NCBI GenBank assembly: GCA_001600815.1
Contig: BCKZ01000021.1
Span: forward strand, 186,001-250,000
Direction of reading: 5' to 3'
DNA: 64,000 nucleotides
DNA from: Alloascoidea hylecoeti
Lineage: Eukaryota
A program made the position numbers and the translations under genes. Under the pieces are notes generated by a model. That model saw only the letters and a program-made list of their open reading frames with translations, did no database searches and was not told where the DNA came from. Shown in pieces: positions 1,513 through 63,360 of this stretch; positions within the stretch are counted from its first letter, which is position 1; the number at the start of each line of letters is the position of its first letter.

Positions 1513-1613
1513 TACGTATATATATGATGTCACGACTCAGAAAGATATTCTGGAGAAAAAACTTAATATAAATATATGAAATCTTGCATTTTTTCCTCCT
1601 TTCAATTACAAAT

Positions 1614-2528
1614 ATGAAAATCTGTAACGTTTTTTTGTTTTTAACATGTTTAGTAATTTATTATTTTTCAGTTGTTGCTTCAGATAATAGCACCATATCA
1701 AGTTATCCTGGAAGTAATGAAGATGTTCCTGTTCGTCAAATTCATTCACATAATGATTTCTGGAGAAAACGTCCATTTTATGATGCTGTTGAAAAGGGGG
1801 TTCAAGGTATAGAAGCCGATGTTTGGCTTTTGGATGATAATGACACAACGTTATACGTTGGACATCATCCTTACTATTTGAATAAAGAGAAAACATTGGA
1901 CAAATTATATATCCAACCAATTCTTGAAAGACTTGATAATGTGAATAATCCTAAATATCATTTACCTCAGGTTAAGAATTCTTCAGATTATAATGGAAAG
2001 ACAAATGGGGTTTTTCATACCAACCAGAATGCTACTTTGTACTTCGTTCTTGATGTTAAAACCAATGGTTCAACCACTTGGCCAAAAATCCTTAAAGCTT
2101 TCCAACCATTGCGAGAAAAGGGTTATTTAACTGATTTTAATGGAACTCATATTACATACAGACAAGTAACAGTCATTGGATCTGGTACTACACCATTAGA
2201 ATATTTTCTTACAAACAAAACTCGTGATTACTTTTTTGAAGCCCAATTAGAAACATTGAACTCTACTTTTGTTCATACTATCAGCCCAATTGCTGCCACT
2301 AATTTTTTAACTTCTGTTGGAAAGCCTGGTTTAAATGGTTTAAATGAAACTGCTTTGAAAACATTAGAATCTCAAATCCAAAAAGCACACTCTTTAGGTG
2401 TTAAGACAAGATATTGGAATATTCCTGAATGGCCTGTTAGAACAAGAAATGCTGTTTGGGAACAAATGCTAAATCTAGGTGGAGACTTTCTTAACACTGA
2501 TAATTTAGATGCAGCAATAAATTTTTAA
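1614..2528 (+). CDS. AIM6: AIM6-family PLC-like phosphodiesterase with N-terminal signal peptide (paralog A)
   Basis: Motifs IHSHNDFWRKRPF, GIEADVW, LYVGH, LYIQPIL, DVKT and GVKTRYW. The first ATG is at 1614; the ORF-track start at 1584 is TTG. The N-terminus MKICNVFLFLTCLVIYYFSVVAS is hydrophobic. Confidence 0.85.
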   Translation: MKICNVFLFLTCLVIYYFSVVASDNSTISSYPGSNEDVPVRQIHSHNDFWRKRPFYDAVEKGVQGIEADVWLLDDNDTTLYVGHHPYYLNKEKTLDKLYIQPILERLDNVNNPKYHLPQVKNSSDYNGKTNGVFHTNQNATLYFVLDVKTNGSTTWPKILKAFQPLREKGYLTDFNGTHITYRQVTVIGSGTTPLEYFLTNKTRDYFFEAQLETLNSTFVHTISPIAATNFLTSVGKPGLNGLNETALKTLESQIQKAHSLGVKTRYWNIPEWPVRTRNAVWEQMLNLGGDFLNTDNLDAAINF

Positions 2529-3509: not shown

Positions 3510-3785
3510 AACATGTATAATTATGTAGTGTTATTTTTTTACAATTATAAATTATAAATTATAGAAACTCCAAAACATAGTTTTACGTTAAAGTTTCAAC
3601 AATATTTCTTATACCTCTTTGATATTATCTTCAGTAATCAATACTATAATAATAAATATATCATTTGAATTCACAAGATAATTACAGTACTAGAGGCAGT
3701 TTAAAAAAGTCAGTTACTGATATTTTCAGATCAATTGTAAATTGTGAAAAAACTCGAAGCAACCGACGACGTATCATAATCAAAA
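3510..3785 (+). repeat. Truncated copy C of the dispersed RanBD-like repeat (upstream region plus N-terminal codons)
   Basis: 3683-3770 is the reverse complement of about 13905-13995 (aaaaagtcagttactgat...attgtgaaaaaa). 3600-3665 is the reverse complement of blocks in 46900-47050 (caatactataat...aaatatatcat; aatatttcttatacct). Confidence 0.75.
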
Positions 3786-3892: not shown

Positions 3893-4426
3893 ATGGGAGA
3901 GCCGATTAATGCCAACCCAACGGTGCTACAAGCATTACCTTCCAGATACGAGAGCAGGGAAGACGCGGGCGATGAAGAGATTGAGAGGTTACTCGGGCTG
4001 AGTGTTTTCCGGCGGGAGGAGGAGGAATCGGAAACCGAAGAGGAAGAAGAGATTGACCCGCAAGAGGTTTATGATCTGGTCAGTGGGATCAGCGATCCCG
4101 AGCACCCGCTGACACTGGGGCAGCTGGCAGTTGTGAGCCTGGAGGACATTGCAGTGAGCCATGGGCGGCGGAGGATGCGGGTTGCGGTTGAGATCACGCC
4201 CACGATCACGCACTGCTCGCTGGCCACGCTCATTGGGCTGGGGGTGCGGGTGCGACTGGAGCGCAGCCTGCCGGCGCGCGCCCACCCGGTGGTGGGGGTC
4301 AAGGCCGGGTCGCACGAGAGCGCGGGGGCGGTTACCCGGCAGCTGGGGGACAAGGAGCGGGTGCACGCGGCGTGCGAGAACGGGCAGCTGGCGGCCGTGA
4401 TTTCCAAGATGCTGGACGCCTGCTGA
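3893..4426 (+). CDS. CIA2: Cytosolic Fe-S assembly component Cia2 (MIP18/FAM96 family)
   Basis: Motifs ISDPEHPLTLGQL, EITPTITHCSLATLIGL and QLGDKERVHAACEN. Confidence 0.93.
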   Translation: MGEPINANPTVLQALPSRYESREDAGDEEIERLLGLSVFRREEEESETEEEEEIDPQEVYDLVSGISDPEHPLTLGQLAVVSLEDIAVSHGRRRMRVAVEITPTITHCSLATLIGLGVRVRLERSLPARAHPVVGVKAGSHESAGAVTRQLGDKERVHAACENGQLAAVISKMLDAC

Positions 4427-4529
4427 TTCGGGCTGACGGGCGGGTAACATTCTTTTCTGTAGCCTAATCATAACTTTAAATCCAGATTCACGACTGCACC
4501 GTATTAGGTTTGGCCAGATAGATGGGTAT

Positions 4530-7500
4530 ATGTATTTGTTGAGTATGCCAAACACCAACATGCCGACGGAGCCGCCACAGCCAGCCCCACCAGGGCCCCA
4601 GCCCCAGCACGGCCTCCCGCACGGCCCCCAGCACGGCCCCCAGCACGGCCCCCAGCCGAGGCTCGTCAAGAAGAAGTCCTTCTTCCAGACTCTGTCCTCG
4701 CGTTTCCAGAAGACGCCTGCCCCCGTCCCCCCCGTCCCGGCCCCCGTCCCCGTCCAGGTGCCCGTCCAGGTGCCCGTGCCGACCATCGCCCGGCTGCCCC
4801 ACTCCCACACCGCCCCCACCGGCCCAGCCTTCCTGACCTACTCGTCCCCCATGCACTCCGACCACAACGTCAGCTCCAACGTGTCTCTGAACACCAGTTG
4901 CAGCGCAGTCTCGCTTCCTGCAGGCCAGCTCCAGCTCCAGCTCCAGCTCCAAAACTCAACTTCAACGGCATCTTCACGAAACTCCAGCGGGAGACTGCGC
5001 ATGCATCGCCGTAAGGGGAGCGTTCTGGGGTTCGTCTTCGAAAGAGACACGGCCCACACCCCGAAAAAGAAACATTCACAGTCCGCCTATTCAAACCACC
5101 TGCCTGGTATGGATCCATCGCTGCAATATAACACCCAAAGCTCGTCTTCTTTTCAGACTCCAAAAACTCCAAATCTGTACTCAAGTGCCTCGTCTCAATA
5201 TCAGTCTCAGGATCTGTCTCAAGATCTGTCTCAAGATGATAGGTCGCGATCAAAATCCATAGCCTCGAGTTTCAGTATCGGTGAATCCAATGCCTTCGTT
5301 TTAAACATCGACAGTCACTCAACTACTTCTTCAACTTCAACCCAAACTAATCAGAAAATTAATTCAATTTTAAAAAAACCAAGATCAAAATCAATACAAA
5401 CTTTAAATCTAAAACAAAGCCCGTTATCTAATTCAATACATAATGTTATTGATAATAATATTATTGAATCTCCATCTTCATCTCCTTTAAGAACAAGACA
5501 CTACACTTTATCCGAAATCCCTGGTTTAAATTCAAAATTTAATTTTAATGATGATAATCATTTCATTAATAATATTGACGAATCTTCCCCAAAATATATT
5601 GATAATTCATCACCAAAATATATTGAAAAATCAAAATCAAAATCAATACCCATTAATTCTTATAATCCTAATAATAAAGATAAAAATGATGATTTTGTAC
5701 CAAAAAGTATAATTAAAAATCATTCCCATTCAAAATCTGAAACTTTTAAATCTTCAATGTATATTAATTCTTTATCTTCAGTTTCAAATCCTGAATTAAT
5801 AAATCTTTCAGATTCAAATGATAAATCAAACTCATTCGTTTCTTCAAATGAAAATCCTGGTAATGAAAATCCTGGTAATGAAAAACTTAATTTACCACAT
5901 TCAATACCAATGACAAAAACAATATCAAGTTTAACAACTGCAAGTAATAATACTGAATTAAGTTTTATTAATAGATATACTTCTTCAATTAATTCAACTG
6001 ATCAACTTCAAGAAAGTGAAATAAAAAAAAATGATTATAATTATATTCATAATCATAATCATAATCATAATCATAATCATAATCATAATCATAATCATGA
6101 AAATGAAAATGAAGAATTATTTTCATCGATACAAAGTTCTGAATCAAATGATACATTTAAAAGATATAATACTTTACAATCAACAATATCAACATCATTA
6201 TCAATTCATAATCTTGAATCAAATAATGTTAATAATAAAATTAAAATTGAAAATGATATAGGAACTGGGAAAATAAGATCAACTGAAATTGAAATGAAAA
6301 ATTCTTATCCAATGATAACTTCTGATTCTGATCCAGAGACTGCAATACCTTCAGAAAAAACAGTAGTAAGAAGAAGAAGAAATAGTAATGGTGATGGAAA
6401 TCATAGAGCTAAAATTGATAATAGACATTCTCGTTGTATTGATGGTTTTATTAAAACTCCAAATTCAAATGCAAGTACTCCAACTTCTGTTAGTATTGAA
6501 AATATTGATAATTATCATAATAAAGAACAATCTTTATTAGAATCAAATTCTTCAATTTCAATTTCAAATTCAATTTCAAATTCCATTTCAGATTCAATTT
6601 CAAATTCTGTTTCAAATTCAAATGATAATTATAATATTAATAACAACAACGAATCAATCACAACAAATTCAATAAAAACTGTTAAATCTGAACAAATTGA
6701 AATGATGTCTCATTTAAATACTTCTAAATCTGTTCCCTTACCATATGATTTTAATCCATTATCAACAAATTCAACAATTAATCAAAGATCATTATCATCT
6801 GAAATATTATCTGAAAGATCATCAAATGATATTAATGAAAAATTAAATTATCATAATAGAACAACAACATTAAATGATATTTTAATTAAAAAACAAAAAA
6901 CAAAAATTTTAGAAAATAATAAATTAAAATCAAGTCTTAAAAGATCAAAATCAACAAATTCAACAACAATTTCAACAACATCAAAATTTCATAGAAAATC
7001 AATTCATAATAATAATAATAAACAAAAGTCTTCAATTATAACAAAACCTCAATTACCAATAAAACATCCATTAGCAGTTAATTCAACAAATGGTACTAAT
7101 TCACCAAGTCGTAAAACTTCTTTAAGGAGAACTGTTAAAGATTTCCCATCTTTAATTGATACTGATTTAGCAAATTCAAATCAATTTATTTATGCTTCAA
7201 TGAAATCATCAAAATCAACTTTTGATTATTCAAGAATGGGTATGAATGATCCTCAACAAAAATCAAAGGATAAAATTAATAATGATAATGAAAAAGATTT
7301 AGAAAAAGATAAAAAATTTAGAGATAATCATAAAAATGGTAAAAATGGTAAAAATGGTAAAAAAATAAAAAGAGCTTTATCAACTTATTTTTTAAAAAAT
7401 ATTAATTTTGATTATAATGATCATGAAAATTCAATTAATAATAATAATGATGGAATACATCAAAATGTTACAATTGTTGATAATTCATCATCAACTACAA

Positions 7501-12024: not shown

Positions 12025-13364
12025 CAATATGGAAACAATCAACAAAATAATAGTAATGATTCATCATATGTATTTATTAGTCTATAATATTAACAAAGTT
12101 AAAAACTTTTTGATGGTATTATTTATATAATACAAGCTATTGGGTGTTTGAGGTTGACCCCCGTAAATTTTTTTTGGACATTAATTCCCAAATTTAAACT
12201 CTAGATTCAAATCAAGTAAGAAATAAATGGTCGATATAGGTGCTCACCCAAAATAATTTAAATATATTAATTTTACTGCAATAACGTATGTAAAATGTAT
12301 AACTTATATGTGTAGCTCTAAAATAGTTGGAAGAATTTTTTTATCTACTTGTATGTAAATATACTAATACCCTATATAAAAGCGCTTTTGCCATTCAGAG
12401 TAAACAATACGGGAATTAACGACTCCCTAATTTATACCCTAGATTCAACCAAGTAAGAAATTATGTTAATTATTTAATACGCCAAAGGCCGAAAAAGCAT
12501 ATTATAATACATAGAAAAAGGGTAAAATTGTATATGAATAGATAATTAGGAGAAAATGATTTGTAAATTTTGAAGATTCTCACATGAAGTGCGATTTCCT
12601 CATATGCATCAAAGTAGTCTCAAGTTAGAATTTTAATTGAATTTATGAAAGATTAATAGAATGACGTAACTTTATAAAGAGCCATATCCAATTGCAAAAG
12701 TTTGGCAATATCTAAGAAATCAAAAAAGTGCTGTTCACGAAAGGTGAAATAAAAGTAGTCGCGTGAAAAGTAAACATTGTCGTATCACTCGAGTCGATAC
12801 TCTTCTCAACAATAAACTATCAAACTCAAAATAAAAATGGAAACTCTAAACAAAATGTCTGAAAGATGGAAAACACAATAATCAATAACTTAATCAAAAT
12901 GAAGAACTCTCTGGAACGTGTCTATATCATGGCTCTTATGATTCTTAGCTGGAATGATAACTTGTTATGAATTAAAGATTGATCTTGTATAGATCAAAAT
13001 TGATATATTCTTTATTAGAAGTGTGCTATTTAGCTAGAAGTAAGATCTTCCGGTTATATTTATATAAACGCTATATTCCGTAAGTTTTGTATGTTTTCCT
13101 TTCGCTGTCCCATATGACAACATTAATTATAGATGTAATATCTTACAAATAATTACCTACGGTAATACAGTACTTGATTTTCTCATTTATAAGTATGTGA
13201 TCTTAAAAATAGTTTCTCTACAAAAATATCTTTAGCCGCATTATTTTCAAATAGGCGAAGAGTTAAAAAGAGTAAAACACCTCCTAGAAGATATCTTAAG
13301 ATTAATGTATATATATTAAAACTAAATATAGCTAGAGGTAAATTTTACATGAAAACCCAATTTA

Positions 13365-14021
13365 TCAGAGATTATGCAGTGCACTACGCACATTTTCCCT
13401 GATATTGTAAAGTTGTTCCTTTCTGAAAATTAATTTAAACAAGTTTTTGCTCTCTTCTGTTCCAAAAATTAAACCAAATTTTACCGACAAAGGTTGTTCA
13501 TGATTTTCTAGATAATATGCTCTGCTAATGTCGTCATCTCTGGTAATCGTGTATCTTTGATACACATAATCTTCATCAAGATTATCAAAATTTAAAGACT
13601 CAGGTAATTTAAAATAATCAGAAGATGAGTCTTTTGATTTCTACTCTGGCCGAATTACATGGGTTGCTAATGCATTATTATAGGCATAAGTTTTAACTTA
13701 ATTCGAAACTGAAAGTGGAAATATTGAAAGATAAATTTCTCTAATTGAGCCTTCACCACGGAAAAATACTACCCGACAAGTTATAGGATTCGACCATTTT
13801 TGTGGTTGTTTTGGATCATTTTAAATCAATACTTTTACTCTCATTCTGTAAACTACTTTTTCATTTTGATAATATGATACTTTTTCAGAGTGGCTGATGT
13901 TTTTGTTTCGCAGTCGGCTGCTTAGATTTTTTTCACAATTCACACTTGATTAGAAAACATCAGTAACTGACTTTTTCAAACTGGCTCTACTGTAATTATG
14001 TTATGATGAAGTTTGTCCGGC
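13365..14021 (-). pseudogene. Copy A of the dispersed repeat: decayed ORF of about 210 codons with a RanBP1/Yrb1-like Ran-binding domain
   Basis: One minus-strand frame with 4 stops: SLKKSVTDVF*...EKVVYRMRVKVLI*NDPKQPQKW...LATHVIRPE*KSK...YVY...KFGLIFGTEESKNLFKLIF. It is collinear with 46311-46851. Confidence 0.65.
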
Positions 14022-14176
14022 CCTACAAATAGTGTATTCTACTGTTTTTGGTGCATTAAAGCTTACGTAGTTTGTGCTTGAGCCCATAACATCATCTTCT
14101 GAGATTCATCTTATCCTCTACACCTATGAATTAATTTACTTGTTCAGTTGTTATAATTAACATCTTACATCTCATT

Positions 14177-17100
14177 CTAACTTCCCTCTAGATCCTTCAA
14201 CGTGTCCTCCGCTATTTTTAATGCTCCTAGTGGCATGCCTGCCATACCTGCTACAACAATTCCATGTGATTGTTTACTAATTCCTGAACGTAATTTATGA
14301 CTAAATATAAAACTTTTATCCAAATTTCTTGATTGACTTATTGTTGGATTTCCAACACTAATCACATCCGTACAATAATATGCAACTTTTTTATTTAATA
14401 TATCATCCTTTGAAATTAATTTATAAAGTTCGGGCCCAAAATGTGTTGCAAATAATGTTCTTGTACAATTGTTTTCAACAAGGTATGAAAGTGTTGAGTA
14501 GGCAATTGCTAAACCTTCTCTTCCACTTGTCCCTCTACCAATTTCATCGACAATTGCGAGAGATTTCGATGTTGCGTTTTTTAAAATAAAACTTGTTTCA
14601 AGCATTTCAACCATAAAAGTGCTGAGTTCTCTGTATAAATCATCAGCCGCTCCAACACGACTGAAAATCTTATCAACAAGACCAATCTTGGCATATTTTG
14701 CAGGAACAAAGCAACCGACTTGTGCAAGAATTGTGATTAAAGCATTTTGGCGTAAAAAAGTACTTTTTCCTCCCATATTAGGACCAGAGACCAACCAAAG
14801 TTGGCCATCCTTCCCAACAGAGCAATTATTAGGAACAAAACTATGAGCATTCTTCTTTAAACCTTCTTCTACAACAACATGTCGACCATCAATAATATCG
14901 AGCTGAGTGGAATTATCAACAATTGGACATACTAATTGTTTTTCATCAGCAAGTTTTGCAAATGATAAAGTTACATCAATATAATCAAGAGTATGACTTA
15001 CTTCACGAATAAGACTCATTTTTTTTAACACTTTTTTTTGTAAAATTAAAAATACTTGACGTTCTTCATTTCTTAAACGCTCTCTTAAACTATCACGCTC
15101 TTTTCCGATTTCTGTCCATTTACCTACATATGCCCATTTTGTAGATTGACTTTTTGAAACTATTTGTCCATTTATTTCTTTAATGAACTCAGTCGCAACA
15201 CCATTACCAGAAATATGAGCTACATGTCCTAAAGCTGGAGTCCATCGAAGTTCCACCCTCACTCCTTTCGGTGCTATATTTTTATAGTAAAGCTCCAGTG
15301 TTTTTTTCTCTTGCTCTTTCAAGTTCAATTCTTCGTGAAGTTTTACTAATGTCTCCGAAGCATGCGGTTTCATTATCCAAAAATCAATAGGATCTTTCAT
15401 TCTTTCCTTCTTAGTATTTGCTTTACTGATACTGGGGTTATTAGATGATGAAGCTTCGTTAATATTGGAAGATTGTATATCGGCTAGTATTTGTTCTTGT
15501 TGGTATTGAGACTCAAGAAGCGCATCTTCATCTATACAATCTAAGATTTCATCAGCCAATTCTATCGGTGATTTCAGATGTTTATATAATTTTCTTAATA
15601 ACATTTTAGGTGCTGAACTCTCATTAACGAATTCTCCAAGCTTGCTTCTTATTTTTTCAACCATTTTCAAACTTCGTGCTAATTGAAGTAAGTCCGTAGC
15701 TCTTCCCCTCGAAAGTGATAGCCTTTGTAACAGTCTTACCATATCACTAGTTTTTGACAGCTGTTTAGAGGTAAATAGTTGCAAAGAAGGAAATTTCATT
15801 AAGAACATAACCATTTTCTGTCTTCTTCGAATTTCTTTTAAATCCATAGAGGGAGCAGAAATCCACTCTGTTAACAATCTAGCACCAGATTGAGTTGATG
15901 TTCTTCTGATAACATTTACCAAAGAGCCTTTTTTACTATTTTCTCTAACTGTTTTGTGCAATTCTAAAGCATCCATTGTTCTGGCATCTATTTGCATAAT
16001 AGAATCTCTCATTTTTCTCTCTGGTAATTCAAAAATCACCTCTGATTCAGGTAAATGTTGTCTCACATATTCTAGAACTGATAAAGACGAGGCTGTCTCC
16101 TTTTGTGTTAAATTTTGAAAGGATTTTTCGGTAGTAAGTTGATCTTCGTCAAACATTTCTAGATATCTCTCAATTGGGCGTCTTGAAACTTTTTGATATT
16201 TTATAAAATAACGTTTTAATTCAATTAAATCTGAGAACCATTTTCCTGATTCTAAATTAGCTGAAATAAGTTCATCATCTAATAATATCTCACTTGGTCT
16301 TATTCTCGAGATATCCGATATTAAATCCTTTAATTCTGTTTCTTGAACGTAGAATTCACCTAACGATAAATCAATCCATGCTAACCCAATAACTGTAGTT
16401 GGATCAGCGACTTTATTAACTGCATCAGATGGAAAATTAATTGATAATAAAAAATTATTTTCTTGAAAGTTTAGAAATGCTTCATCGATTAAGGTACCTG
16501 GTGTGACAATACGTGCTACACGTCTATTAAATTTAAAAGGATCGTTAATCGCATCCGTTTCTCTTTCAAATTGATCAGCAACAGCGACACTGAGACCCAA
16601 ATCTTGGACCAAAATTTTCAAATATCTATCCAATTGACCAATGGGAAACCCTGCCATTGCCACTGGTCCTTTGACAGTTGTCCTGAATGCCAATCTTATA
16701 TTTAATTTTTGAGAAAATTCCTCTGCTTCTTGAAAATATAACTAAATAATATGTTAATCATATTATTGAGTATGATAAAAAAATAAAAAACAATGTAAAC
16801 ACATACCTCATAGAAACTCCCAACCTGAGTCAATAGTACATGGTCTTTATAATTTTCTTTGAGCTCTATTATTCTCTCTAGTAGTCTTGGATATGAATTT
16901 TTCGTGGTTTTCGCACCTCTATCGATAAGTTTTTCATCATTTCCATCATCATTAGTTGAACCAGATTTCTTCTTTTTTATGTCCTTTTTTCTCTTTTCTT
17001 CGCTCAATATTTTCTCTTCTTCATTTTGTAAATCTTCAAGTGATATTCGCTGTATATGAGGTTTCTGATATATCGGTCCTATATGGGAGAATGATCGTAA

Positions 17101-23045: not shown

Positions 23046-23966
23046 CTAAAATTGTATTGCCCCATCTAAATCATCTGTTAATAGAAAGTCTCCATCTGCA
23101 TTTGCTATTTGTGTCCAAATTGCGTTTCTTGTTCTAACTGGCCAATCAGGAATATTCCAATATCTTGTCTTGATGCCTAAAGAGTGCGCGTATTCGATCT
23201 GTGATTCTAATATTTCGATAGCAGTATCATTCAAACCATCTAAACCAGGTTTACCAACAGTGCCTTGGAAATCTGCAGAAGCTATTGGGCTAAGGGTAGC
23301 AGTAAAAGTATTATTCAATCCATATAATGGCGCATCAAAAAAGTAATCGCGAGAATTGTGTTCAAGGAGATAGTCCAATGGAGTCTCTCCAGTTCCTATA
23401 ACAGTTACTGGCCTGTATGTAATGGCCGTTCCATTGAAATCAGTTAAATAATTCTTCTCTCTCAAAGGTTGGAGCGCTTCAACGACTTTGGGCCAAGCGG
23501 TTGAACCATTATTTTTAACATCGACAAACAAATATAATGTGGCACCAGCATTGGTTTGAAACACTCCATTAAGATCTTTGTTAAATTCCCCAGAATTGTT
23601 AACTTCAGGTAAATGATAGATGGGATTATTCAACTTATTAAGTGTTTCAAGAATTGGTTGGATATATAAACTGTCGAATGTTCTCTCTTCCTTTAAAGAG
23701 TAAGGATTATGCCCAACGTATAATGTTGTGTCATTCTCGTTCAAAAGCCAAACATCAGCTTCTATACTTTGAACTCCTCTTTCAACAGCATCATAGAAGG
23801 GACGTTTTCTCCAATAATCATTGTGTGAATGAATTTGACGAACGGGAACATCTGCGGTACTTCCAGGGTAAGCTGTGCTGTTATTATCCGAAGTTGCAAT
23901 TGCAACAGCGGAAGAATAATAGCTCAAAAAAGATGTTAAAAAGAAAGAGACATTACAGATTTTCAT
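23046..23966 (-). CDS. AIM6: AIM6-family PLC-like phosphodiesterase with signal peptide (paralog B)
   Basis: Same motifs as 1614-2528 (IHSHNDYWRKRPF, SIEADVW, GIKTRYW) and collinear over the whole length. The ATG of MKICNV is at 23966. Confidence 0.85.
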   Translation of the reverse strand: MKICNVSFFLTSFLSYYSSAVAIATSDNNSTAYPGSTADVPVRQIHSHNDYWRKRPFYDAVERGVQSIEADVWLLNENDTTLYVGHNPYSLKEERTFDSLYIQPILETLNKLNNPIYHLPEVNNSGEFNKDLNGVFQTNAGATLYLFVDVKNNGSTAWPKVVEALQPLREKNYLTDFNGTAITYRPVTVIGTGETPLDYLLEHNSRDYFFDAPLYGLNNTFTATLSPIASADFQGTVGKPGLDGLNDTAIEILESQIEYAHSLGIKTRYWNIPDWPVRTRNAIWTQIANADGDFLLTDDLDGAIQF

Positions 23967-25979
23967 TTTTAATTGAAACAATAAAAGTAATAATTGGAAA
24001 TTACATAGATTTAATCATCTATTTATACTATAAAAAAAGATTTCTAAAATACTCGATATCGATTACCCCCCTAGCCGGAATTTATCATCATATGCAATGC
24101 ATAGCAGATGTCTGTACCACACACGTGTTATGAGATGGGGCATAGTCCAGAGTTGACCATTGTTATTTGCCAATTGTGGGCACGTTTTTATCTTCATGAA
24201 GTTCGTCACAGATTGTAGCAACCAATACTAATAGTGATAATCCTATATGCATTTCATATATAAACAGGCTCTATGTATATCATTTTATAATTATATTATC
24301 CTGGAAAAACAGTGAATTACAAGCACGAGTATTAATCCGCTGTACCTGCATAATCACATTCTAATTTTCGAAATATGCGGCTAGTACAGAGTAATGGTTT
24401 ATTTAGTGTTCCTGTTCCTGTACCTGTATTGCTCCTGATCAATCTATTAATTCTAATTTCTCCTCATAAATGAACATATTCAACAGTAGATTCCTATGTG
24501 AACATTCCATTCCGTCTTTCAGCTTCTTGATTCTGATATTTAAAGGTTTGTGGCTATGTGACTACAAAACATAATAATAGTGTCGATTGACAATGCATAT
24601 GAGATTATTATATTTTACATCTTAGCTATACTTCTGCTGTAAATATTAATAGTAACTACATTGTGTTTGACAAACTCTTAAATGTGTATTTATTTAGGAC
24701 CATCGCTGTTCGTACCGTTAATAGTAGATATCATGGGGTCCTTCTTGTCTACATTAATATTTTATGTAGATTTCGTGAGGTAGACCGTTAATTTGTTCTA
24801 GTAAGAGTAGAAAAGAGAGGAAATGTTTGTTGTTCATATCTACTTTTGTGGATGAAGAATCTATACCCAATTTCAATAGATCCTTAAAAAAGTAGAGTTT
24901 TGCGTTTACCATCTAGTATAATGACTTCAAACAACCATCTTCCTTCAGATATCCTAGTTTCTTTGAATTCTTCATTCCTTATTATTGGTGTTTTTGGATA
25001 TTAAAGTAAGTAATATCTTTTTGAAAAAGAACCTTCACATGTTTATGTTCTTCTTAATTTTCATATGTTTGCATTTATTTTTATTTTTTTGGATAGGATT
25101 TTATTATGTATAAATTATACTAAATTACAATTGATAAAAAGAAATACAATTTCATATTGTGCGAAACTTTAAAATACAAATGTTTTTAGTATAGACTTAC
25201 ACTTATTCTTTTTTAGTAAAAACAAGAGCCTACATATAGTTGAATATAATACTTTGAGCTCATTTTCGAATCCCATCGAAAGACATTAGAAATATATAAT
25301 AATAAAGTTCTAAGTGTTGCCCCAAAAAGTCAATCGACTATTTGTGAACTGTTCTAAGGTTTGATACCAACATATAATATTAACCATATGGTACTAAATG
25401 TACATACTGATATTTGAATCTAAGTTTAGGTTTCGCCGTTCACCTATGTCCCTATATATTAACAATTTTAAATCCGTTAGTAATTATAATCATACTATTC
25501 AAAAGAAGGACTCGTATTTGCCATAACTTGTGAAACAAGGCCCACTTTTTTTGAAAGTATATATATGACGGACGGGTTAAATATTCCAATCTAAGGTCTT
25601 TCCCAATAAATGAAGCGAAACAGTAATATATAAACTATAGAAGCATTAACAACATGTTCTTCGGTTTTAATACCTGGGTTTAACTATAAGATGTATAAAT
25701 ATAGAATACCAGATGTGAAAATTTAAATTTATTGGCTAAATTTACCCAATCTATTTATTATAGTTCATACTGTTCTACTCTTAACTACTAAGCTTGTGCT
25801 TGCTTTAATTTATTTTTGTAAATCGGAATTGGAATTGGAATTGGGAAACAAATATGATTTTTTTGAATTTTGAAATAAAAAATTTAGTCTTATTACTCCT
25901 ATCCAATTTTTGAAAATTATGCAACTGTAATTATGATCTTGAGTAAAATATCTGATTATAGCTATTAGAATCACATAAA

Positions 25980-43893: not shown

Positions 43894-45150
43894 TTATTGA
43901 AACAATAAACTAGCTGCTAAGTCTGCATTTCCATCTGTTAATTGAAGTGCAACAAGTGCTTGATCACGGCTAAATCCTAAATTAGTTAACATTTTAATTT
44001 TATCTTCTGGGAAATCAGGCATCTGAGGAGCTGTTTTTGCCTTCTCTTCTTTTGGCTTTTCTTCCTTTTTCTTGTCTTCTTTTGGCTTTTCTTCTTTTGA
44101 CTTTTCTTCTTTTGGTTTTTCTGCTTTCGCAGGCTCATCAGAAGTTGAAGCAGTTGAACCTTGTTCTTCAAATGCATCTTTTGGTAGTTCAGATTCAGGT
44201 AAGAATGAAGTTTGTGATTCACCAAGTACTAAAATATTATTCTTCAAATCAATTATACCCTGATGACGTTTTAACATATCAAGACCTAATAATAAATCAA
44301 CACTTTGACCTTCAATAACAGTAAATGAACACGGTAAAAATGATGTACCAACTTTGATTGGAGCACTATGAATTCTACCTAAAATATTGGCAGTACCAAC
44401 ACCTTTTGCAACACCTTTAAATCGTTGATCTAAAAGTCTAAGAATTCCACATTTGTCAGCACATTCAGGGCTTATAATAGTTGCTTGAGCACCAGAATCA
44501 ACAAAAGCTTTGACGGCAAACCCATTAACTTCAACGTTAATATATAACATTGTGACTCTACCAAAAGCTTCTGGATTATGCTCCAAAGCATTTTCCAAAT
44601 TTTCAGCAATTTGCTCCTGTCTAATAATTTCTAAGATTCTCTTTTGATTGTCTTCATCGTCAGGATTTGTACTTAATTTTAATAATTCATCTTTAATAGC
44701 TCTATCCTGTTGTCTTCTCTCTTTATCAATTGCTAACATTTTATCTTTAAATTTGATTGGATCATTAATAACCGGAGTTAAATCGGGGTAGGCACCTAAT
44801 AATCGTTGTTTTAAATCATCATCGAGACTGATCTGCAGTCTTAATCTTTCAATTTCAGCTTCGAACGGATTCTCGGGTGGTGGAGGTGGTGAAGGTGGGG
44901 CAGGGTCTGCCACTGGCTTCTTTTTTTGCCTCCTTTCCACTATAATGAGTTCATCACCTTGGAATCCCCATTCATTTAATATTTTATCATCACCAACAAG
45001 TGGGTTTAATTGAAAGAAAATTATCATTTCATCAACTGGTATTCCGGTTTCGCATTCAATATATGCTTTGAAATCAGCTAATGTCATGGAAGTTGAAACT
45101 TCCAAGGAGATTAACTCCTTCAGGTTTTCGAGAGCTAAAGTAAGTCTCAT
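43894..45150 (-). CDS. DDI1: Ddi1 (UBL, helical domain, retroviral-type aspartic protease, UBA)
   Basis: Motifs MLYINVEVNG..VKAFVDSGAQATI, GVGTANILGRIH and DLLLGLDMLKRHQ. The C-terminal UBA is LTNLGFSRDQALVAL...NADLAASLLF. Confidence 0.95.
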   Translation of the reverse strand: MRLTLALENLKELISLEVSTSMTLADFKAYIECETGIPVDEMIIFFQLNPLVGDDKILNEWGFQGDELIIVERRQKKKPVADPAPPSPPPPPENPFEAEIERLRLQISLDDDLKQRLLGAYPDLTPVINDPIKFKDKMLAIDKERRQQDRAIKDELLKLSTNPDDEDNQKRILEIIRQEQIAENLENALEHNPEAFGRVTMLYINVEVNGFAVKAFVDSGAQATIISPECADKCGILRLLDQRFKGVAKGVGTANILGRIHSAPIKVGTSFLPCSFTVIEGQSVDLLLGLDMLKRHQGIIDLKNNILVLGESQTSFLPESELPKDAFEEQGSTASTSDEPAKAEKPKEEKSKEEKPKEDKKKEEKPKEEKAKTAPQMPDFPEDKIKMLTNLGFSRDQALVALQLTDGNADLAASLLFQ

Positions 45151-45686
45151 GTTTATGTTCTTGTGTACGGATCCGTAGAGCAGATATAAAAATAGAAAAG
45201 GGTTAACTTTTGTGGTGTTGAGAGTTTTGATGTTGATCGTAAAAGTGAAAAAAAAAAAGTTGAAATGCGCTGATCCAGATATTTATAATCTTTTCAATTG
45301 GAATTGAAAAAGTTAAAACGGTAGTATACATTTATTATACGAATTTTATCATTGATTCAAGCTGATCATATCCACATTATTATTGATTTAATTTTTGAAA
45401 ATCCCGTTCTAATTCTTAAACTGTCTCCTACTATTTAAGTATACGTACTCATATATTTACTATGATACTTAGTTTGGTTATACCTGACCATTTATCACTT
45501 TAATAGTGTTGAGAAAATTTATTTTGGAGGAAAAGAATCGAAACTACGATTACAGGATCAAACCTGAGATTTAAGACAGAACGAGGCCTCAAATATTGTG
45601 CTATGGGACTTTTTTTTTTTTGGATAGCGGCAATTTTTCTATTTTTTCGGGAATATTAATAAAAAATAATTCATAAAAACTCAGCA

Positions 45687-45759
45687 TGCCTCAAGTCGGA
45701 TTCGAACCAACGATCTTAACATTACTAGTGTTACGCCTTACCAACTTGGCCATCAAGGC
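45687..45759 (-). tRNA. tRNA-Thr(AGT)
   Basis: 73-nt cloverleaf with acceptor GCCTTGA/TTGAGGC, D-arm TGGCCAAGTTGGTAAGGC, anticodon arm TAACA-CTAGTAA-TGTTA and T-loop GGTTCGAATCC. A T5 Pol III terminator lies just downstream. Confidence 0.95.
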
Positions 45760-46310
45760 TGGCTCTTTCTCTGCGTGGGAACTCATTATTTGACTTGACT
45801 ATGACTTATCATACAAAACCGACCTAAGAATAGAGGTTTTTATTTCACTATATATAGTAGAGATTTCCTCAGAATTTACATAGTTTCTAGTTATATAATT
45901 TAATTGGAAAATATATGAAAAGTTAAAAAAAAAACTTATTTATTATTTCTCTACTACATTTTCTTATTTCTTTGTTACATTTTAATATTTCTTCATGACA
46001 TTTTTATGTCTTTGCCGTATTTTAACACTACTTTAAGTGTTCTATAAATATATATTGGATTATTTATATAAAATAGGGATTTATTTAACGTAATTTCAGG
46101 GACAATATTAACAAATTTCAAGAGAGCCATTTTTGACAAATTGTAAATTATGTGTCAGAGTAATTATTTAACAAATCCAACGACAATTATTTAATCATTT
46201 GTGGTTATTCATATAAATTTAAAGCCATTTTTCATAGATACTCAAACAATAAAAAGAAAGTAAAAATAAAAATAAAACTCTAAAATTAATAATACAAGTT
46301 TATTTTCTTT

Positions 46311-47105
46311 ATTGTAAAGTTGTTCCTCTTTAAAAATTGATTTAAAGAAGTTTTTGCTCTCTTCTGTTCCAAAAATTAAACCAAATTTTACCGAAAAAGG
46401 TTGTTTATGATCCAGATAATAAGCTCTTGACATCTGTTAATGTCCTCAGTTCTGGTAATCGTGTATACACACAATCTTCATACAGATTTAAAGAGTCTGG
46501 TAATTTAAAATAATTAGAATATGGGTCTTTTAATTTATATTCTGGCTGAATTTTATAGCTTGCCAAAGAATTGTTATAGACATCAGTTTTAATTGAGTTC
46601 GAAGCTGAACATGTAAATATTGTAAGAACACTTTCTCCATGAAACCCAATTAATTCACCACGGGAAATTTTTACATCACAAACTATGGGATTCGACCATT
46701 TTTAGGGTTGTTTTGGATCATTTTGAATCAGTATTTTGCTCTCACTCTGAAAACTGCTTCTTGACTTTTTATACAATTATTCACAATTAATTTGAAAACA
46801 TGAGTAACTGACTTTTTCAAACTATATATTTTGTTGTGATGTTTGTCCGGCATTCTTATCTTGATCAAATCCTGGAAACAAAGGAGTTATTTCCATAGTT
46901 ATATGATATATTTATTATAGTATTGACTACTGGGGATAATTAAAATGGGAAAGAAGAGCTTGACTGAAAAAAAATTCTACCTATATTTTGTTAACGTTAT
47001 ATGAATCATAAATACGTATAATATCAAGAAAGGTATAAGAAAATATTTTAACGTCAAATAGCACTACCCATAACTATAATCGAGTTTATAACAATTACAT
47101 GTAAA
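46311..47105 (-). pseudogene. Copy B of the dispersed RanBD-like repeat (frameshifted) plus its upstream region
   Basis: Fragments EAVFRVRAK, LIQNDPKQP, LASYKIQPEYKLKDP and KFGLIFGTEESKNFFKSIF. The DNA is collinear with 13404-14021, and its upstream part with 3510-3770. Confidence 0.65.
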
Positions 47106-47676
47106 ATGGCAATCTCGAACTCCACTGGTATTAATATTCCAATACGTGGACATCAATTGCATGCCTATAATTATATTTTTAGTAAGTTATAAATCTCACT
47201 ATATTTTGAACATGTGCTGATTTATAGCTATGTGATATACAACAAACGAATGTTATATTCATTATTAAATATTCTAACTAGATACAAATATAGAGCTATA
47301 AGGCTGTATTTATGTTTGCAATTGACTGTATTAATATTATTATGAGTACCGATTAGGAAAAATTTAAATTATGACGTATTAAAACCAAAAAAATATTCTC
47401 ATGATCATGATTAATATGTTAATAATGACAGTTAACAACTTGACACCGTATAGTCTATCGTTTAGTTGATTACAGGGCTTAAAAAAGGTTTCGTTGCCAT
47501 TCAAAATTAAAAACAAATTAACATGTATTTCAAACTAACTTTTTATCTAACATAAATATATATAATTAAAAAAAACAATATAACCTTTTAATATTGTAGT
47601 TGCAATTTGATTAGATGTAACTATAATCATATAGAATGTCATACCATTTCTTTTTTTTTCACTTTAACTATATAAA

Positions 47677-49008
47677 TTAAGCCTCTTCTTCAACTCTTGC
47701 CCTCTTAGGTAAAACAAGGTCTTTGCCAGTTATTCTTTTATATAAATCCTTAACATCATCAGTAGTTGATTCAAAATGACTTGAAGCATCATAACTTTTT
47801 GAAATGAAAACATTATCTTTTGTACCATCTTCAATTGGTTCTAATAAATCATAAATACCAGTAAATACGTCTTCATATTTACCAATTAATTTAGCAGCTG
47901 GTTCTAATTCTTTTTCAGGTTCATCTGTTTCAATTATTGTTGAAGCAATAGCTAAATAAAAATTCTTGACACAAACGTGATGTGGGGAAGATACAACAGC
48001 AATATAAATATCATTACGACGATTAACTGTTGATTGTGGAATGATAATTTGAGCAGAGTCTGAATTATCAGTACCTTTAATTGGATTCTTAATAACAAAG
48101 ATCTTTCTAATTACTTTTTTACCAGATTTTTGGACTTTATCAGCAAAATAGGTTGGATCACCAATAATTATTGGAGCATTTGCAGATTCAGAACCAGATT
48201 TAATACCAGTTGCTTTGCCATCATCACCATAAATTATACCATCAACAGGCGTTGATAACATGTAGGTACCACCATAGATTGCAGATAATCTAGCAAAACC
48301 TTGTGGTAATTCACCAAGACCATATAATGGGTAGATATAAGGACTTTTACCATATCTTGCAAGGGATTGAACATATAAGATAATACGATCATAAGTATCT
48401 CTTGCAGGAATTGTTAAGTATTTATCATCTGAAAATAAAGCCATTGCATGGCCAATGAAGTCTTTGGTGGCAGATTCCAACCCAAATTTATTATACATAT
48501 CATCAGCAGTATCAGTATCTAGATTTAAACCTTGATGTGTTGAATTGTCATCTTCAACATAGGAGGCAATAAATTCTAAGAATTTCTTCATTCTTCTTTT
48601 TTCAAATAAGCCCATCAAAGGGGAAGAAATAGCTTCTTGTTCAGTAGCGGGAACTTTAGCAACCGAACCATCTTTACTGTAAACATAGGAACCGGAAACC
48701 TGTTTAAACTCAATGTATCTGGTAACATCGGTATGAACCAAAATATTTGTCAACTCACCATTTGCCATTAAGAATTTTGGGATCAAATCAACACACCAAT
48801 CTCTATTTCTACCATATTCTTCAGAAGGTTGTTCGGTAGGTTTGAATTGAGAATAAAGTTGTGTCAAGTTTAAACTTGCACTTTCACCACCATAATGGTC
48901 CTGACGGTCGATATGGAGGACTTTTTTCCCTTCAACGGATAGGATACCGGAAAGGATACATTCAGTAAGGCCAGTGCCTAAAACAATAACGTCGTAGTTC
49001 TCATTCAT
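47677..49008 (-). CDS. GDI1: Rab GDP-dissociation inhibitor
   Basis: Motifs YDVIVLGTGLTECILSG, DLIPKFLMANG, YPLYGLGELPQGFARLSAIYGGTYML and SYDASSHFES. Confidence 0.97.
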   Translation of the reverse strand: MNENYDVIVLGTGLTECILSGILSVEGKKVLHIDRQDHYGGESASLNLTQLYSQFKPTEQPSEEYGRNRDWCVDLIPKFLMANGELTNILVHTDVTRYIEFKQVSGSYVYSKDGSVAKVPATEQEAISSPLMGLFEKRRMKKFLEFIASYVEDDNSTHQGLNLDTDTADDMYNKFGLESATKDFIGHAMALFSDDKYLTIPARDTYDRIILYVQSLARYGKSPYIYPLYGLGELPQGFARLSAIYGGTYMLSTPVDGIIYGDDGKATGIKSGSESANAPIIIGDPTYFADKVQKSGKKVIRKIFVIKNPIKGTDNSDSAQIIIPQSTVNRRNDIYIAVVSSPHHVCVKNFYLAIASTIIETDEPEKELEPAAKLIGKYEDVFTGIYDLLEPIEDGTKDNVFISKSYDASSHFESTTDDVKDLYKRITGKDLVLPKRARVEEEA

Positions 49009-60758: not shown

Positions 60759-62558
60759 TTAACTTAATATTGTCTTTTTTTTAGAAAATAAACCCATAAT
60801 TGATTGAAAAGCACTTGATGGTGGTTGTTGTTGTAAACCTCTAGGTATTGGTTCAGGTTTTGTTATAGTTAAACCTTGATTGGCAAGTTTTATAGAACCT
60901 TCAGAGAAACCAATATTTGTACCAGTACCATATAAAGTTGTATTATCACTACCACTATTACTTCTATAACGTTGACTTTCTTTTTGTTGTTGTTGTTGTT
61001 GATGATGTTGTTGTAATTGTTGTTGATAAGATTCAATTGGAATTTTATGTTGATAATTTGAATATAAATATTCAGATTCGTTTGGAATTAAATATTGATT
61101 TCCATTTGAATCTAATTGAAATTGATCATTATTTAAATCCATATCTTGATCTTGATCATATTGTATATCTTCATCATTTTCTTCTAAAATTTCATCTTCA
61201 GTTAAAAATTTAGAAATACTATCACCAATTTTAACAATTTTTTTTTTAAATTCAATTGAACCATCAAATCTTTCAAAAGTATCTAAACCAATTGAAACAT
61301 CAACAGGACTTAAATTTTCATCAACATTTAAAGATAATGGCATAAAACAATTACCAATTTTTGAAGGAACACTCCAAATTTTTCCTAAAATTATTTCACC
61401 ACCAATTTCTTTAACTTTTGTATCAATTAAATTATTAATATTACATTTTGTTGCACATTCAGGAGATATAGAAGTTAATAAATTTGAAGTATTTACAACG
61501 GCTTTAACTTTAACACCATTTATTTCAATAGCAATATATAAAGCAACGATTTTTTTTGGCATATTTTCCAAAGAAGTATTTAAGTTTTCAGCAATTATAT
61601 CTTGTTTTATAAATTCTAAAATTTTATTTTGATTTGATTGATTATAAGGATTATTATTTAATCTTAAAATTTCTTTTTGAATTTGCTGTTTTTGTTTTCT
61701 TCTTTTTTTATCATTTTCAATCATTGCAGATCTAAATAATAAAGGGTCGTTTATGATTGTTTTTAGAAAAGGATAAGCACCAAATAATTGTTCGGATAAA
61801 GTTGGATCTAATTTTGTTTGAAGTCTAAATCTTTCAATTTCTCCTTCTAATTGGTTTTCGGGTGTTGTTGACATTTGCAGTTGGTTCTGGCTTTGAATTT
61901 GCATCTGTTTTTGTGATTGATATTGCTTCTCTTTTTCCTTTTGTTTTTCTTTCTCTTTCTGTAGAAATCTTTGAACGGTTTCCTGATCGACGTAGTCAAA
62001 TCTTTTCTGGGAGCTGAAATTAGAGTTTGTCATTTTGGATAGGGTATCTAGGGATTTTGGAGATAAGGAGTTCTTGGGCAAAGAGCCTCTGGGGGGAGCA
62101 CCTCTGGGGGCGGTCTTTTTGGGCTGGGGCGGCGGGAAATACCCCGAGGCACGTGCGGACTCCTTGCTCAGCCGGATGGCCTCCTGCAAATCCTTATCGA
62201 ACTGGGCGGCCGGATCTTCTTGCGGCGGAGTAGGGGGGACTTGGGATCGGCGGCGGGACCGTGTTCGGGAGCGCCGTGGGTTGGCCCGCGAGGACGCGCG
62301 GGGGGTGGCGACGGCCGCCGGCCCCTCCGCGGGGGAGACGGGCTTCCTTTCGACTTGTATGATATCGTCGTCGTGCAGATCCCAGGACCTCAGCTTGATG
62401 CGGTCGCCCGCCATGGCCTCGTTTTCGAACAGCAGCAGCATTTTGTCTGGGGGCACGCCCGTCTCGGAGTGGGCGAAGGCCTTGAGGTCGGCCAGGGACA
62501 TGTAGCCGGACACCTCGATGGGGATGATGTCATCGCCGTGGAACAAAGTGAGTCTCAT
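60759..62558 (-). CDS. Ddi1 paralog with a degenerate protease site (UBL, UIM-like helix, helical domain, pseudo-RVP; no UBA)
   Basis: Collinear with DDI1 at MRLTL...LADLKAF...ETG, EIERFRLQ, IIAENL, LYIAIEING and SPECA.KC. It has VNTSN in place of VDSGA. Confidence 0.85.
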   Translation of the reverse strand: MRLTLFHGDDIIPIEVSGYMSLADLKAFAHSETGVPPDKMLLLFENEAMAGDRIKLRSWDLHDDDIIQVERKPVSPAEGPAAVATPRASSRANPRRSRTRSRRRSQVPPTPPQEDPAAQFDKDLQEAIRLSKESARASGYFPPPQPKKTAPRGAPPRGSLPKNSLSPKSLDTLSKMTNSNFSSQKRFDYVDQETVQRFLQKEKEKQKEKEKQYQSQKQMQIQSQNQLQMSTTPENQLEGEIERFRLQTKLDPTLSEQLFGAYPFLKTIINDPLLFRSAMIENDKKRRKQKQQIQKEILRLNNNPYNQSNQNKILEFIKQDIIAENLNTSLENMPKKIVALYIAIEINGVKVKAVVNTSNLLTSISPECATKCNINNLIDTKVKEIGGEIILGKIWSVPSKIGNCFMPLSLNVDENLSPVDVSIGLDTFERFDGSIEFKKKIVKIGDSISKFLTEDEILEENDEDIQYDQDQDMDLNNDQFQLDSNGNQYLIPNESEYLYSNYQHKIPIESYQQQLQQHHQQQQQQKESQRYRSNSGSDNTTLYGTGTNIGFSEGSIKLANQGLTITKPEPIPRGLQQQPPSSAFQSIMGLFSKKKTILS

Positions 62559-62679
62559 ATTTAACAGCGAGCAAAAGTGAGGTTGGAGGTGGAGTTAGTG
62601 CCTGCTTATATACTCTACACCCGCACACCCACACACCCCTACTTAAACCCTGCCGGCACGATCGCAGCTCCCACCAGCA

Positions 62680-63360
62680 ATGCTCGAGTCCCTCTCCCTC
62701 GCCGTGTCGGCCTCGCTGCCCCACGTCTTCGTCCGCCCCCTCGGACCACGCGACCTGCCGCAGTGCGTGGCCCTGGAACAGCTGGCCTTCCCCCCCAACG
62801 AGCGGGCCACAGAGCAGAAGATCGCGTACAGGCTGCGTGTGTGTCCAGAACTAACGGCCGGCATCTTCCTACGAACTTTCTCCTTCGCCTCCAACGAATC
62901 CTCCTCCTCGCAACTGGAGGACTCGGAATTCTCCTCGCAAATCGACGAGGATAAATTCGGTCCTTCCAAGGTCATAACCGACGAAAAACTGATTGCCCAT
63001 ATCCACGCAACGAAAATAAAGTCTCAAACTGTAACTGCTGAAACTATGGATATACCAGTTCTGGATTCTTGGGGTCGTAAAGTATCCTCTTCAAACATCG
63101 GCCATTCAGAAGATGGTATAAATGTTGCTCTACATTCTTTAGCTGTTCATCCGGATTATAGAAATCAATCTTTAGGTTCCTTACTATTAACTGATTATAT
63201 CCAAAGATTATCCAATTTAAAAGTAGCTGCGAAAATCGTTATTATTGCTCATGAAGAATTGGTATCTTATTATACAAGATTAGGCTTTGTGGACTACGGT
63301 CTTAGTGAATGTAACTGGGGTGGTGTTAAATGGCATGATTTGGCTATCTCTCTAACTTAA
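62680..63360 (+). CDS. PAA1: Polyamine N-acetyltransferase (GNAT)
   Basis: Motifs LEQLAFPPNERA...YRLRVCPEL..G.F.R, HSLAVHPDYRNQSLG and IAHEELVSYYTRLGF. Confidence 0.85.
   Translation: MLESLSLAVSASLPHVFVRPLGPRDLPQCVALEQLAFPPNERATEQKIAYRLRVCPELTAGIFLRTFSFASNESSSSQLEDSEFSSQIDEDKFGPSKVITDEKLIAHIHATKIKSQTVTAETMDIPVLDSWGRKVSSSNIGHSEDGINVALHSLAVHPDYRNQSLGSLLLTDYIQRLSNLKVAAKIVIIAHEELVSYYTRLGFVDYGLSECNWGGVKWHDLAISLT

What the first reader, a model, noticed from the sequence alone, without database searches (positions are those of the whole stretch)
13365..14021. Dispersed multi-copy family encoding a divergent RanBP1/Yrb1-like domain (copies at about 3.5-3.8, 13.4-14.0 and 46.3-47.1 kb)
Seen: three related segments in different orientations. 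The combined reading gives EAVFRVRAK / W / LATHVIRPE-YKLK / YVY / KFGLIFGTEESKNFFKSIF. This follows recalled Yrb1 blocks EVLYKVRAK / W / ANHIIAPEYTLK / WVY / TFAIRFGSKENADKFKEEF in order. Stops in copy A are sense codons in copy B (TAA/CAA, TAA/TCA, TAG/TAT), so the copies decayed independently from an intact ancestor. Upstream non-coding DNA was copied too, so these look like DNA-level duplications rather than retrocopies. Inference: three copies in 64 kb imply a large, rapidly turning-over family, either transposon cargo or a selfish gene family acting on the Ran nuclear-transport system. Ran-pathway duplicates are known in genetic conflict, for example Drosophila Sd-RanGAP. That link is speculative.
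Basis: partly seen in the sequence, partly recalled or inferred. Interest (0 to 1): 0.72.

Follow-up and report, generated by a model that had tools for sequence, protein, structure and literature searches.

The report
Fast-turnover Yrb1-derived yeast gene family
These are dead copies of a real, many-copy gene family that a yeast built from its nuclear-transport helper Yrb1; the family lost the usual Ran-gripping parts and kept being copied, changed and discarded, as genes in an evolutionary arms race often are, but what it does is unknown.

Summary
Confirmed, with corrections. The three segments belong to a family of at least 39 loci on 17 contigs (32 window-type B, 7 type A). Its profile hits only yeast Yrb1 among PDB sequences, and models of both types match Yrb1 best. 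All three window copies are dead; the 3.6-kb one holds no Ran-binding domain. Open frames exist elsewhere: two of type B, three of type A (A adds a myristoylation-like start and PPPY). The Ran-contact motif EWKER and the N-terminal arm are lost. New here: 15 type-B copies carry 9 stops against 37-43 expected neutrally, while the other five frames and co-duplicated gene remnants behave neutrally; yet dN/dS is about 1 (type A 0.4). So most copies were kept as genes while their residues changed fast, then died: birth-and-death evolution. Copies spread as DNA blocks without shared TIRs; both YRB1 introns are missing, so the founder may be a retrocopy. No evidence links it to meiosis or drive. The scan found this family before on other contigs (e1-7784994, e1-7784942).

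The parts
13365..14022 (-). Type-B pseudogene (the finding): 5'-truncated, single frame with five premature stops; Yrb1-like core at about 13404-13856
   Evidence: 72-82% DNA identity to its 16 best genomic relatives
13136..13364 (-). 3' flank copied together with the gene (shared with C21:348k, C7:455k, C9:741k)
12532..12733 (-). Distal 3' flank shared with the copies at C21:349k and C3:67.7k; marks a duplicated block of about 1.5 kb
12778..13119 (.). 342-bp solo-LTR-like insertion in the 3' flank (TGTC...GACA ends, ACAT target-site duplication); separate repeat family
   Evidence: 45 matches in the genome including itself
46305..46896 (-). Type-B pseudogene with start codon at 46896; one stop and three frame-breaking indels in the core, more in the tail
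46897..47253 (-). Upstream (promoter-side) DNA shared by many type-B copies
47368..48591 (-). Spacer and GDI1 3' part co-duplicated with the 46-kb copy to C7:597.4-599.9k, where GDI1 is a decayed remnant
3581..3771 (+). 5' fragment of a type-B copy: upstream DNA and N-terminal tail only, no Ran-binding-domain sequence

Best explanation
A lineage-restricted protein family born once from YRB1 (probably through an intronless copy), which kept the PH/EVH1-like Ran-binding-domain fold but lost the canonical Ran-gripping surface and gained an insertion and new tails. Type A (about 7 loci, 3 intact) carries an N-terminal MGxxxS start, in two cases with cysteines, and a PPPY motif: most likely a membrane-anchored adaptor that brings an Rsp5-type ubiquitin ligase to whatever its domain binds. 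Type B (the window's type, 32 loci) lacks both signals and was amplified by ragged DNA duplications of 1-3 kb. Type-B copies were kept open by selection for most of their private history while many residues changed at least as fast as neutral DNA, then died one by one; a young cluster on C9 still holds open frames. The most likely driver is recognition of a fast-changing protein partner (a selfish element, virus or competitor protein) by a binding module under an arms race. SHOWN: ancestry, fold (by prediction), copy number, dead state of the window copies, motif loss, stop deficit, dN/dS. INFERRED: retro-origin, lipid anchoring and Rsp5 binding (motifs recalled from general knowledge and PMC10721834), loss of Ran binding, the arms race and its target (I put the specific adaptor/arms-race function at about 0.35).
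For: Ancestry: profile of 13 members hits 7 of 177,635 PDB sequences at E<=10, all S. cerevisiae Yrb1 (best E 1.2e-6); P0001 finds 6 proteins among 1.84 billion, five family members and one Yrb1-like protein (E 3.9e-4); among the four host RanBD loci only YRB1 scores. Fold: models of P0001 (pLDDT 57.6) and P0005 (69.5) have Yrb1 chains as top Foldseek hits (E 1.7e-7, 1.8e-4). Frame kept open: 9 stops in 152 core codons of 15 copies against 37-43 in neutral simulations (0 of 400 runs reached 9, four starting copies); the other five frames match expectation; counting terminal branches only with an AT-biased spectrum gives 24-27 expected for the 11 dispersed copies; co-duplicated GDI1, SUR2-like and MSH1 remnants have 6 stops against 5.6 expected. 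Protein-level constraint: 24 invariant columns against 11 neutral, with normal synonymous variation in them (10 variants/24 columns vs 40/102). Fast change: omega 1.06 (MG) and 1.36 (MGK), above all 20 neutral simulations (0.68-0.94; 0.90-1.25); 24 columns with five or more residues against 15 (P 0.003-0.02). Type A omega 0.39-0.46, omega=1 rejected by 11 lnL units. EWKER is replaced by KWSNP/KWSDP or xWSEP in all 8 family proteins checked.
Against: No expression or binding data. Positive selection is weak: 0-fold and 4-fold sites diverge equally (0.107 vs 0.103 for AT, 0.164 vs 0.179 for GC), the non-synonymous/synonymous count excess has P 0.03-0.11, and site-mixture models crashed. Invariant columns are more AT-rich than variable ones (GC 0.27 vs 0.40), so part of the site heterogeneity may be mutational. 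In-frame indels are not enriched over flanks in pairwise alignments (12/42 vs 26/100, P 0.84), and the 46-kb/C7 pair has as many frame-breaking indels in the core as the GDI1 remnant (4 in 461 bp over two lineages vs 3 in 561 bp over one). The finding's own copy has 3 core stops against about 2 expected, so it shows no sign of ever having worked at this place. Only 2 of 15 type-B copies are open from start to end, both with single ambiguous bases. The P0005 model was built with a true Yrb1 in its alignment. The Atlas gave no usable hit for P0005.
Confidence: 0.6

Rival explanations
1. Selfish poison-antidote or spore-killer family in the manner of wtf: PY-bearing, membrane-anchored type A as antidote or suppressor, PY-less type B (or its product from the internal Met) as poison.
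For: Tens of dispersed copies, many pseudogenes, fast change with open frames. wtf antidotes use PY motifs to recruit Rsp5 (PMC10721834, abstract) and wtf families hold many pseudogenes (PMC9562144, passages). A conserved internal Met starts the core, and two dispersed copies are open from it (P0005, P0009). The young C9/C5 block sits beside HOP2.
Against: A and B are unlinked and only about 35% identical; wtf antidote and toxin come from one gene and are multi-pass membrane proteins. No conserved MSE/URS1 upstream. No gene-conversion signal (P 0.35), whereas wtf genes show it. HOP2 pieces in the C9 copies are decayed passengers, like GDI1 and SUR2-like pieces beside other copies.
Confidence: 0.12
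2. One reading: the proteins still bind Ran (or Crm1-Ran) and act as decoys or modulators of nuclear transport, like duplicated transport genes in Drosophila conflict.
For: Yrb1 is the closest fold and sequence. RanBP3 lost half its Ran contacts and still acts on export complexes (PMC3045386, passages). Drosophila transport duplicates turn over fast and leave pseudogenes (PMC8645118, abstract and passages). The host has two Ran genes.
Against: All of EWKER except W is replaced, the N-terminal arm is absent, and the basic MRRD stretch is gone; these are the contact classes named in PMC3045386. Ran is nearly invariant, which gives little reason for hypervariable sites.
Confidence: 0.12
3. Type B is neutral debris: dead-on-arrival segmental copies from one or a few source genes, with no function at most loci.
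For: omega about 1; equal 0-fold and 4-fold divergence; 13 of 15 copies not open end to end; neighbouring genes are duplicated and decay in the same blocks, so this genome copies DNA readily; no indel-frame enrichment.
Against: Frame-specific stop deficit, also on terminal branches alone, with remnant controls on expectation; excess invariant columns that keep synonymous variation. Copying from many since-lost functional donors would fit, but that again means a functional family.
Confidence: 0.11
4. Cargo of a transposon (pack-type DNA element, Helitron, LTR or LINE retrocopies).
For: Dispersed on 17 contigs; DDE-type elements lie near two copies (C9:712k, C7:801k); introns absent.
Against: No shared inverted repeats enclosing 9 copies, ragged ends, no poly-A tail in the alignment, upstream DNA and neighbour genes copied along; the TIR element at C7:800.5-802.5k lies beside, not around, the copy.
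Confidence: 0.05

Closest known systems
Yrb1 / RanBP1 (Ran-binding domain, Pfam PF00638)
   Same: PH-like fold and block order; residues such as RAK, W of strand 2, H..PEY, D after strand 6, FG and the C-terminal helix. One type-A member passes the Pfam cut-off (27.1 bits vs 23.2).
   Different: EWKER, N-terminal arm and basic MRRD lost; about 15-residue insertion after PEY; new N-terminal tails; no introns; multi-copy and fast-evolving, while the host keeps an ordinary YRB1 on C19. None of the six type-B proteins scanned hits any Pfam family.
RanBP3/Yrb2 Ran-binding domain (weak Ran binder, PMC3045386)
   Same: A RanBD that has lost canonical contacts
   Different: RanBP3 keeps W-ER and half the interface and is a conserved single gene; the family derives from Yrb1, not from the host's other RanBD genes
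wtf killer meiotic drivers of fission yeasts (PMC9562144, PMC10721834)
   Same: Dispersed multigene family with many pseudogenes and fast evolution; PY motif in the N-terminal tail of one class
   Different: No sequence or fold relation; soluble PH-like domain rather than multi-pass membrane protein; no gene-conversion signal, no repeat-association (1 tRNA in 37 loci), no meiotic evidence
Drosophila nuclear-transport duplicates (Ran-like, Ntf-2r, importin-alpha; PMC8645118)
   Same: Duplicates of a nuclear-transport gene, possibly RNA-born, fast-evolving, high turnover
   Different: Those are one or a few copies per genome with omega about 0.35-0.5 and testis expression; the paper has no RanBP duplicates (0 occurrences of 'RanBP'); here about 39 loci in a yeast

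Membership tests
RanBP1/Yrb1 Ran-binding domain | Sequence homology to RanBD | tested here: met
   (type A)
RanBP1/Yrb1 Ran-binding domain | PH-like fold (beta-barrel plus C-terminal helix) | tested here: met
   predicted models of moderate confidence; Yrb1 top hit
RanBP1/Yrb1 Ran-binding domain | EWKER motif in strand 2 (salt bridges to Ran effector loop; PMC3045386) | tested here: not met
   KWSNP/KWSDP/xWSEP in 8 of 8 family proteins checked; same in the 15-copy alignment
RanBP1/Yrb1 Ran-binding domain | N-terminal extension that embraces Ran | tested here: not met
   replaced by unrelated tails
RanBP1/Yrb1 Ran-binding domain | Binds Ran-GTP and co-activates RanGAP | not testable with these tools
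wtf-type killer meiotic driver | Multi-copy, pseudogene-rich, fast-evolving family | tested here: met
wtf-type killer meiotic driver | Poison and antidote from one multi-pass membrane gene, PY motifs in antidote tail | tested here: not met
   PPPY only in type A, none in type-B proteins checked; models are soluble PH-like domains
wtf-type killer meiotic driver | Non-allelic gene conversion | tested here: inconclusive
   near-site incompatibility 0.277 vs 0.283 permuted, P 0.35, 157 sites; low power on a star-like tree
wtf-type killer meiotic driver | Meiotic expression and transmission bias | not testable with these tools
   no RNA holder listed; no conserved MSE/URS1 (motifs recalled from S. 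cerevisiae)
Transposon cargo (TIR, LTR, LINE) | Shared termini, TSD or poly-A tail | tested here: not met
Rsp5 adaptor with lipid anchor (type A only) | PPxY motif and MGxxxS start | tested here: met
   P0001, P0002, P0003, P0014; the meaning of the motifs is recalled, acylation and Rsp5 binding untested

The most novel reading that the evidence does not exclude
A budding yeast turned an essential nuclear-transport cofactor into a two-class genetic-conflict system: PY-less type-B proteins as toxins or drivers that are repeatedly born and silenced, and slower-evolving, membrane-anchored PPPY type-A proteins as Rsp5-recruiting antidotes or suppressors. It would be a wtf-like logic reached independently from a Ran-binding fold, and a spore-killer family in budding yeasts.
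Probability: 0.1. Interest if true: 0.88.

Novelty: new variant of a known kind. Interest (0 to 1): 0.52.

Why it matters
RanBP1/Yrb1 is normally a conserved single gene. A family of about 39 derived loci in one yeast, with the Ran surface lost, reading frames defended by selection and residues changing at or above the neutral rate, is the pattern seen in conflict and recognition genes. It gives a short, testable list (five open genes, two classes) for asking whether budding yeasts carry wtf-like drivers or a private defence family, and shows a RanBD being reused as a general binding module. The window copies themselves are ordinary pseudogenes.

Tried and rejected
Relatives outside this organism: none. 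Word-index searches gave 4 proteins (P0001) and 13 (profile); those checked map to this genome (P0010-P0013 at 98-100%); the whole-library search gave only family members and one Yrb1. Both word searches covered near lengths only. No related genomes are held, so orthology and age could not be tested. Viral origin: best BFVD hit is a RanBD protein of a giant virus at E 2.8e-4, 15% identity, weaker than Yrb1. ESM Atlas: only leads under 0.9 (EVH1_PP4R3, WH1, Ran_BP1) for P0001, none for P0005. tRNA association: 1 of 37 loci. Shared TIRs: none. Meiotic promoter motifs: MSE-like hits in 3 of 18 upstream regions at unrelated positions, URS1 in none. Indel-length test: no enrichment. Site-mixture codon models crashed and gamma fits scored worse than the simpler model, so no formal site test. 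HOP2 remnant rows were sliced out of frame (stops in the query) and were dropped from the control count (4 of 8 rows; with them 8 observed vs 6.9). Expression: no RNA holder listed; the one RNA run laid gave two short unlike pieces inside MSH1, which is no evidence either way. Strain variation: the three DNA runs differ by at most one letter in 3.4 kb of MSH1, so they say nothing on polymorphism. Complex prediction with Ran was not available; no verdict. Literature: 'YRB1 + gene family expansion + yeast + pseudogenes' 0 papers; searches listed nothing on such a family (12 of 135, 10 of 47, 3 of 3 listings seen); subscription papers and supplements were not searched.

Full report
Setting. The window is G000:C21:186001-250000 of a 24.8-Mb, AT-rich assembly with budding-yeast gene content (MSH1, OPT, COX15, DDI1, GDI1, DOA4-like; gene names are my reading of the Pfam hits). 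The finding lies between a NAF1-like gene and the 3' end of MSH1.

Observation. Self-comparison links 13403-13871 with 46310-46773 (78%, E 1e-107) and 3671-3767 with 14006-13913 (85%, inverted). The 13.4-14.0 kb copy reads in one frame with five premature stops and lacks the family start. The 46-kb copy keeps its ATG (46896) but has a stop and frame-breaking indels. The 3.6-kb piece is upstream DNA plus the N-terminal tail only. Contigs from three DNA runs reproduce four of the five stops.

Family size. DNA and protein searches of the genome gave 38, 26, 56 and 36 matches. I merged them by hand into 32 type-B segments (21 of them 400 bp or longer) and 7 type-A segments on 17 contigs. These are lower bounds; C9:749k may be an assembly duplicate of C9:757k (99.9% over 1.5 kb) and two type-A hits are weak. 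Of 15 near-complete type-B copies, chosen by DNA similarity and length and not by frame, two are open from the family start to the end (C9:741k, 207 codons; C9:757k, 193 codons), each with single ambiguous bases that cannot form stops. Two more C9 copies have open cores, and two dispersed copies are open from an internal Met (P0005, P0009). Type A has three intact genes (P0001-P0003) that begin MGxxxS and carry PPPY.

Ancestry and fold. A 13-member profile hits 7 PDB sequences, all yeast Yrb1. P0001 finds one non-family protein in 1.84 billion, a Yrb1. Of the host's four RanBD loci only YRB1 (C19:387k, next to the neutral trehalase gene) scores. AlphaFold models give a PH-like topology with Yrb1 as best match. 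A and B share derived features (WSxP for WKER, an insertion after PEY), so they have one origin. PMC3045386 (passages read) names three classes of Ran contact: the N-terminal arm, basic residues for the DEDDDL tail, and EWKER. The family has lost the arm, EWKER and the MRRD stretch. It is a descendant of Yrb1, not a member of the Ran-binding class by motif; binding itself is untested.

How it spread. Shared DNA extends about 350 bp upstream and up to 0.8 kb downstream with ragged ends. Some blocks carry parts of neighbours: GDI1 (window to C7), HOP2 and a subtilisin gene (C5, C85, C9), a SUR2-like gene (C9). There are no shared inverted repeats, no poly-A tail, and one tRNA among 37 loci. Host YRB1 has two introns; the family is continuous across both sites. 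A retrocopy founder followed by DNA-level duplication is the simplest reading; intron gain in YRB1 after the split is not excluded.

Selection. The type-B tree is star-like with terminal branches of about 0.06-0.14 for dispersed copies. omega is 1.06 (MG) or 1.36 (MGK); 0.5 is rejected by 25 lnL units. Neutral simulations on the same tree give 0.80 and 1.05 on average. Type A gives 0.39-0.46. On omega alone type B looks like junk, but its stop load does not: 9 observed against 37-43. The deficit is confined to the coding frame, holds for terminal branches alone (24-27 expected for 11 copies), and is absent from co-duplicated remnants (6 vs 5.6). Invariant columns are twice as many as expected and keep synonymous variation; hypervariable columns are also in excess. 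By hand, frame-breaking indels in the dispersed cores run at roughly a third of the remnant rate, in line with the stops, but the numbers are small and the direct indel tests were negative. The reading: copies lived as genes for about two thirds of their private history and then died. The finding's own copy is an exception that looks dead from early on (3 stops vs 2 expected). Evidence for positive selection proper is suggestive only.

Mechanism. I commit to a birth-and-death family of binding modules that no longer grip Ran in the usual way. Type A is probably lipid-anchored and recruits an Rsp5-type ligase; type B is a soluble, faster-changing offshoot. A moving target (selfish element, virus, competitor) best explains open frames with fast residue change, but no target was found. 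Drive is possible by analogy with wtf (PMC10721834 abstract; PMC9562144 passages) and with Drosophila transport duplicates (PMC8645118 abstract and passages); nothing here ties the family to meiosis except a passenger HOP2. Sd-RanGAP as a driver is recalled, not checked.

Prior knowledge. Four literature searches found no description. Two earlier notes of this scan describe the same family on other contigs; I had found type A and its motifs before reading them, took the HOP2 lead from one, and confirmed it. The stop-deficit, selection controls and intron loss are my additions as far as the short notes show.

Verdict. Real feature, new variant of a known kind, interest 0.52.

Noticed in passing
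window 12778-13119: 342-bp solo-LTR-like element with TGTC/GACA ends and ACAT target-site duplication; 45 matches in the genome, the others at 67-94% identity
   Followed up: partly
window 1572-2528 (+) and 23046-24014 (-): Intact paralogue pair of secreted-looking GDPD/AIM6-like genes, 78% DNA identity, third positions most diverged
   Followed up: partly
window 43894-45282 and 60759-62594: Two DDI1-like genes; the second lacks the UBA hit and reads AVVNTS where the first has the protease motif AFVDSG, so it may be catalytically dead
   Followed up: no
window 15914-16135: A 222-bp piece of MSH1 is duplicated at C5:380k (91%), beside an upstream fragment of the family, and decays there
   Followed up: partly
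window 45829-45935: 107-bp AT-rich repeat with 95-96% copies at C9:735.0k and C7:453.9k, each within a few kb of a family copy; a tRNA-Thr(AGT) lies at about 45687-45759
   Followed up: no
window 4001-5000 and 62001-63000: GC-rich islands (60-64%) between divergent gene starts in otherwise 30% GC DNA
   Followed up: no
G000:C20:281.5k and C3:111.3k (L107, L108): Two Ran (GSP1-like) genes; several other small GTPases (Ras, Rho1, Ypt6, Ypt7, Cdc42) also come in pairs
   Followed up: no
G000:C9:709-758k, C5:1238-1240k, C85: Young, partly unresolved cluster of HOP2 + family gene + subtilisin blocks, with a pogo-like DDE element at C9:711.8-713.6k; HOP2 on C85 is 99% identical to C5
   Followed up: partly
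L016/L017 (C13:43.7-44.3k), L022 (C19:356.8-357.4k), L030 (C14:524.4k): Three decayed family copies contain internal inversions or fold-back duplications
   Followed up: no
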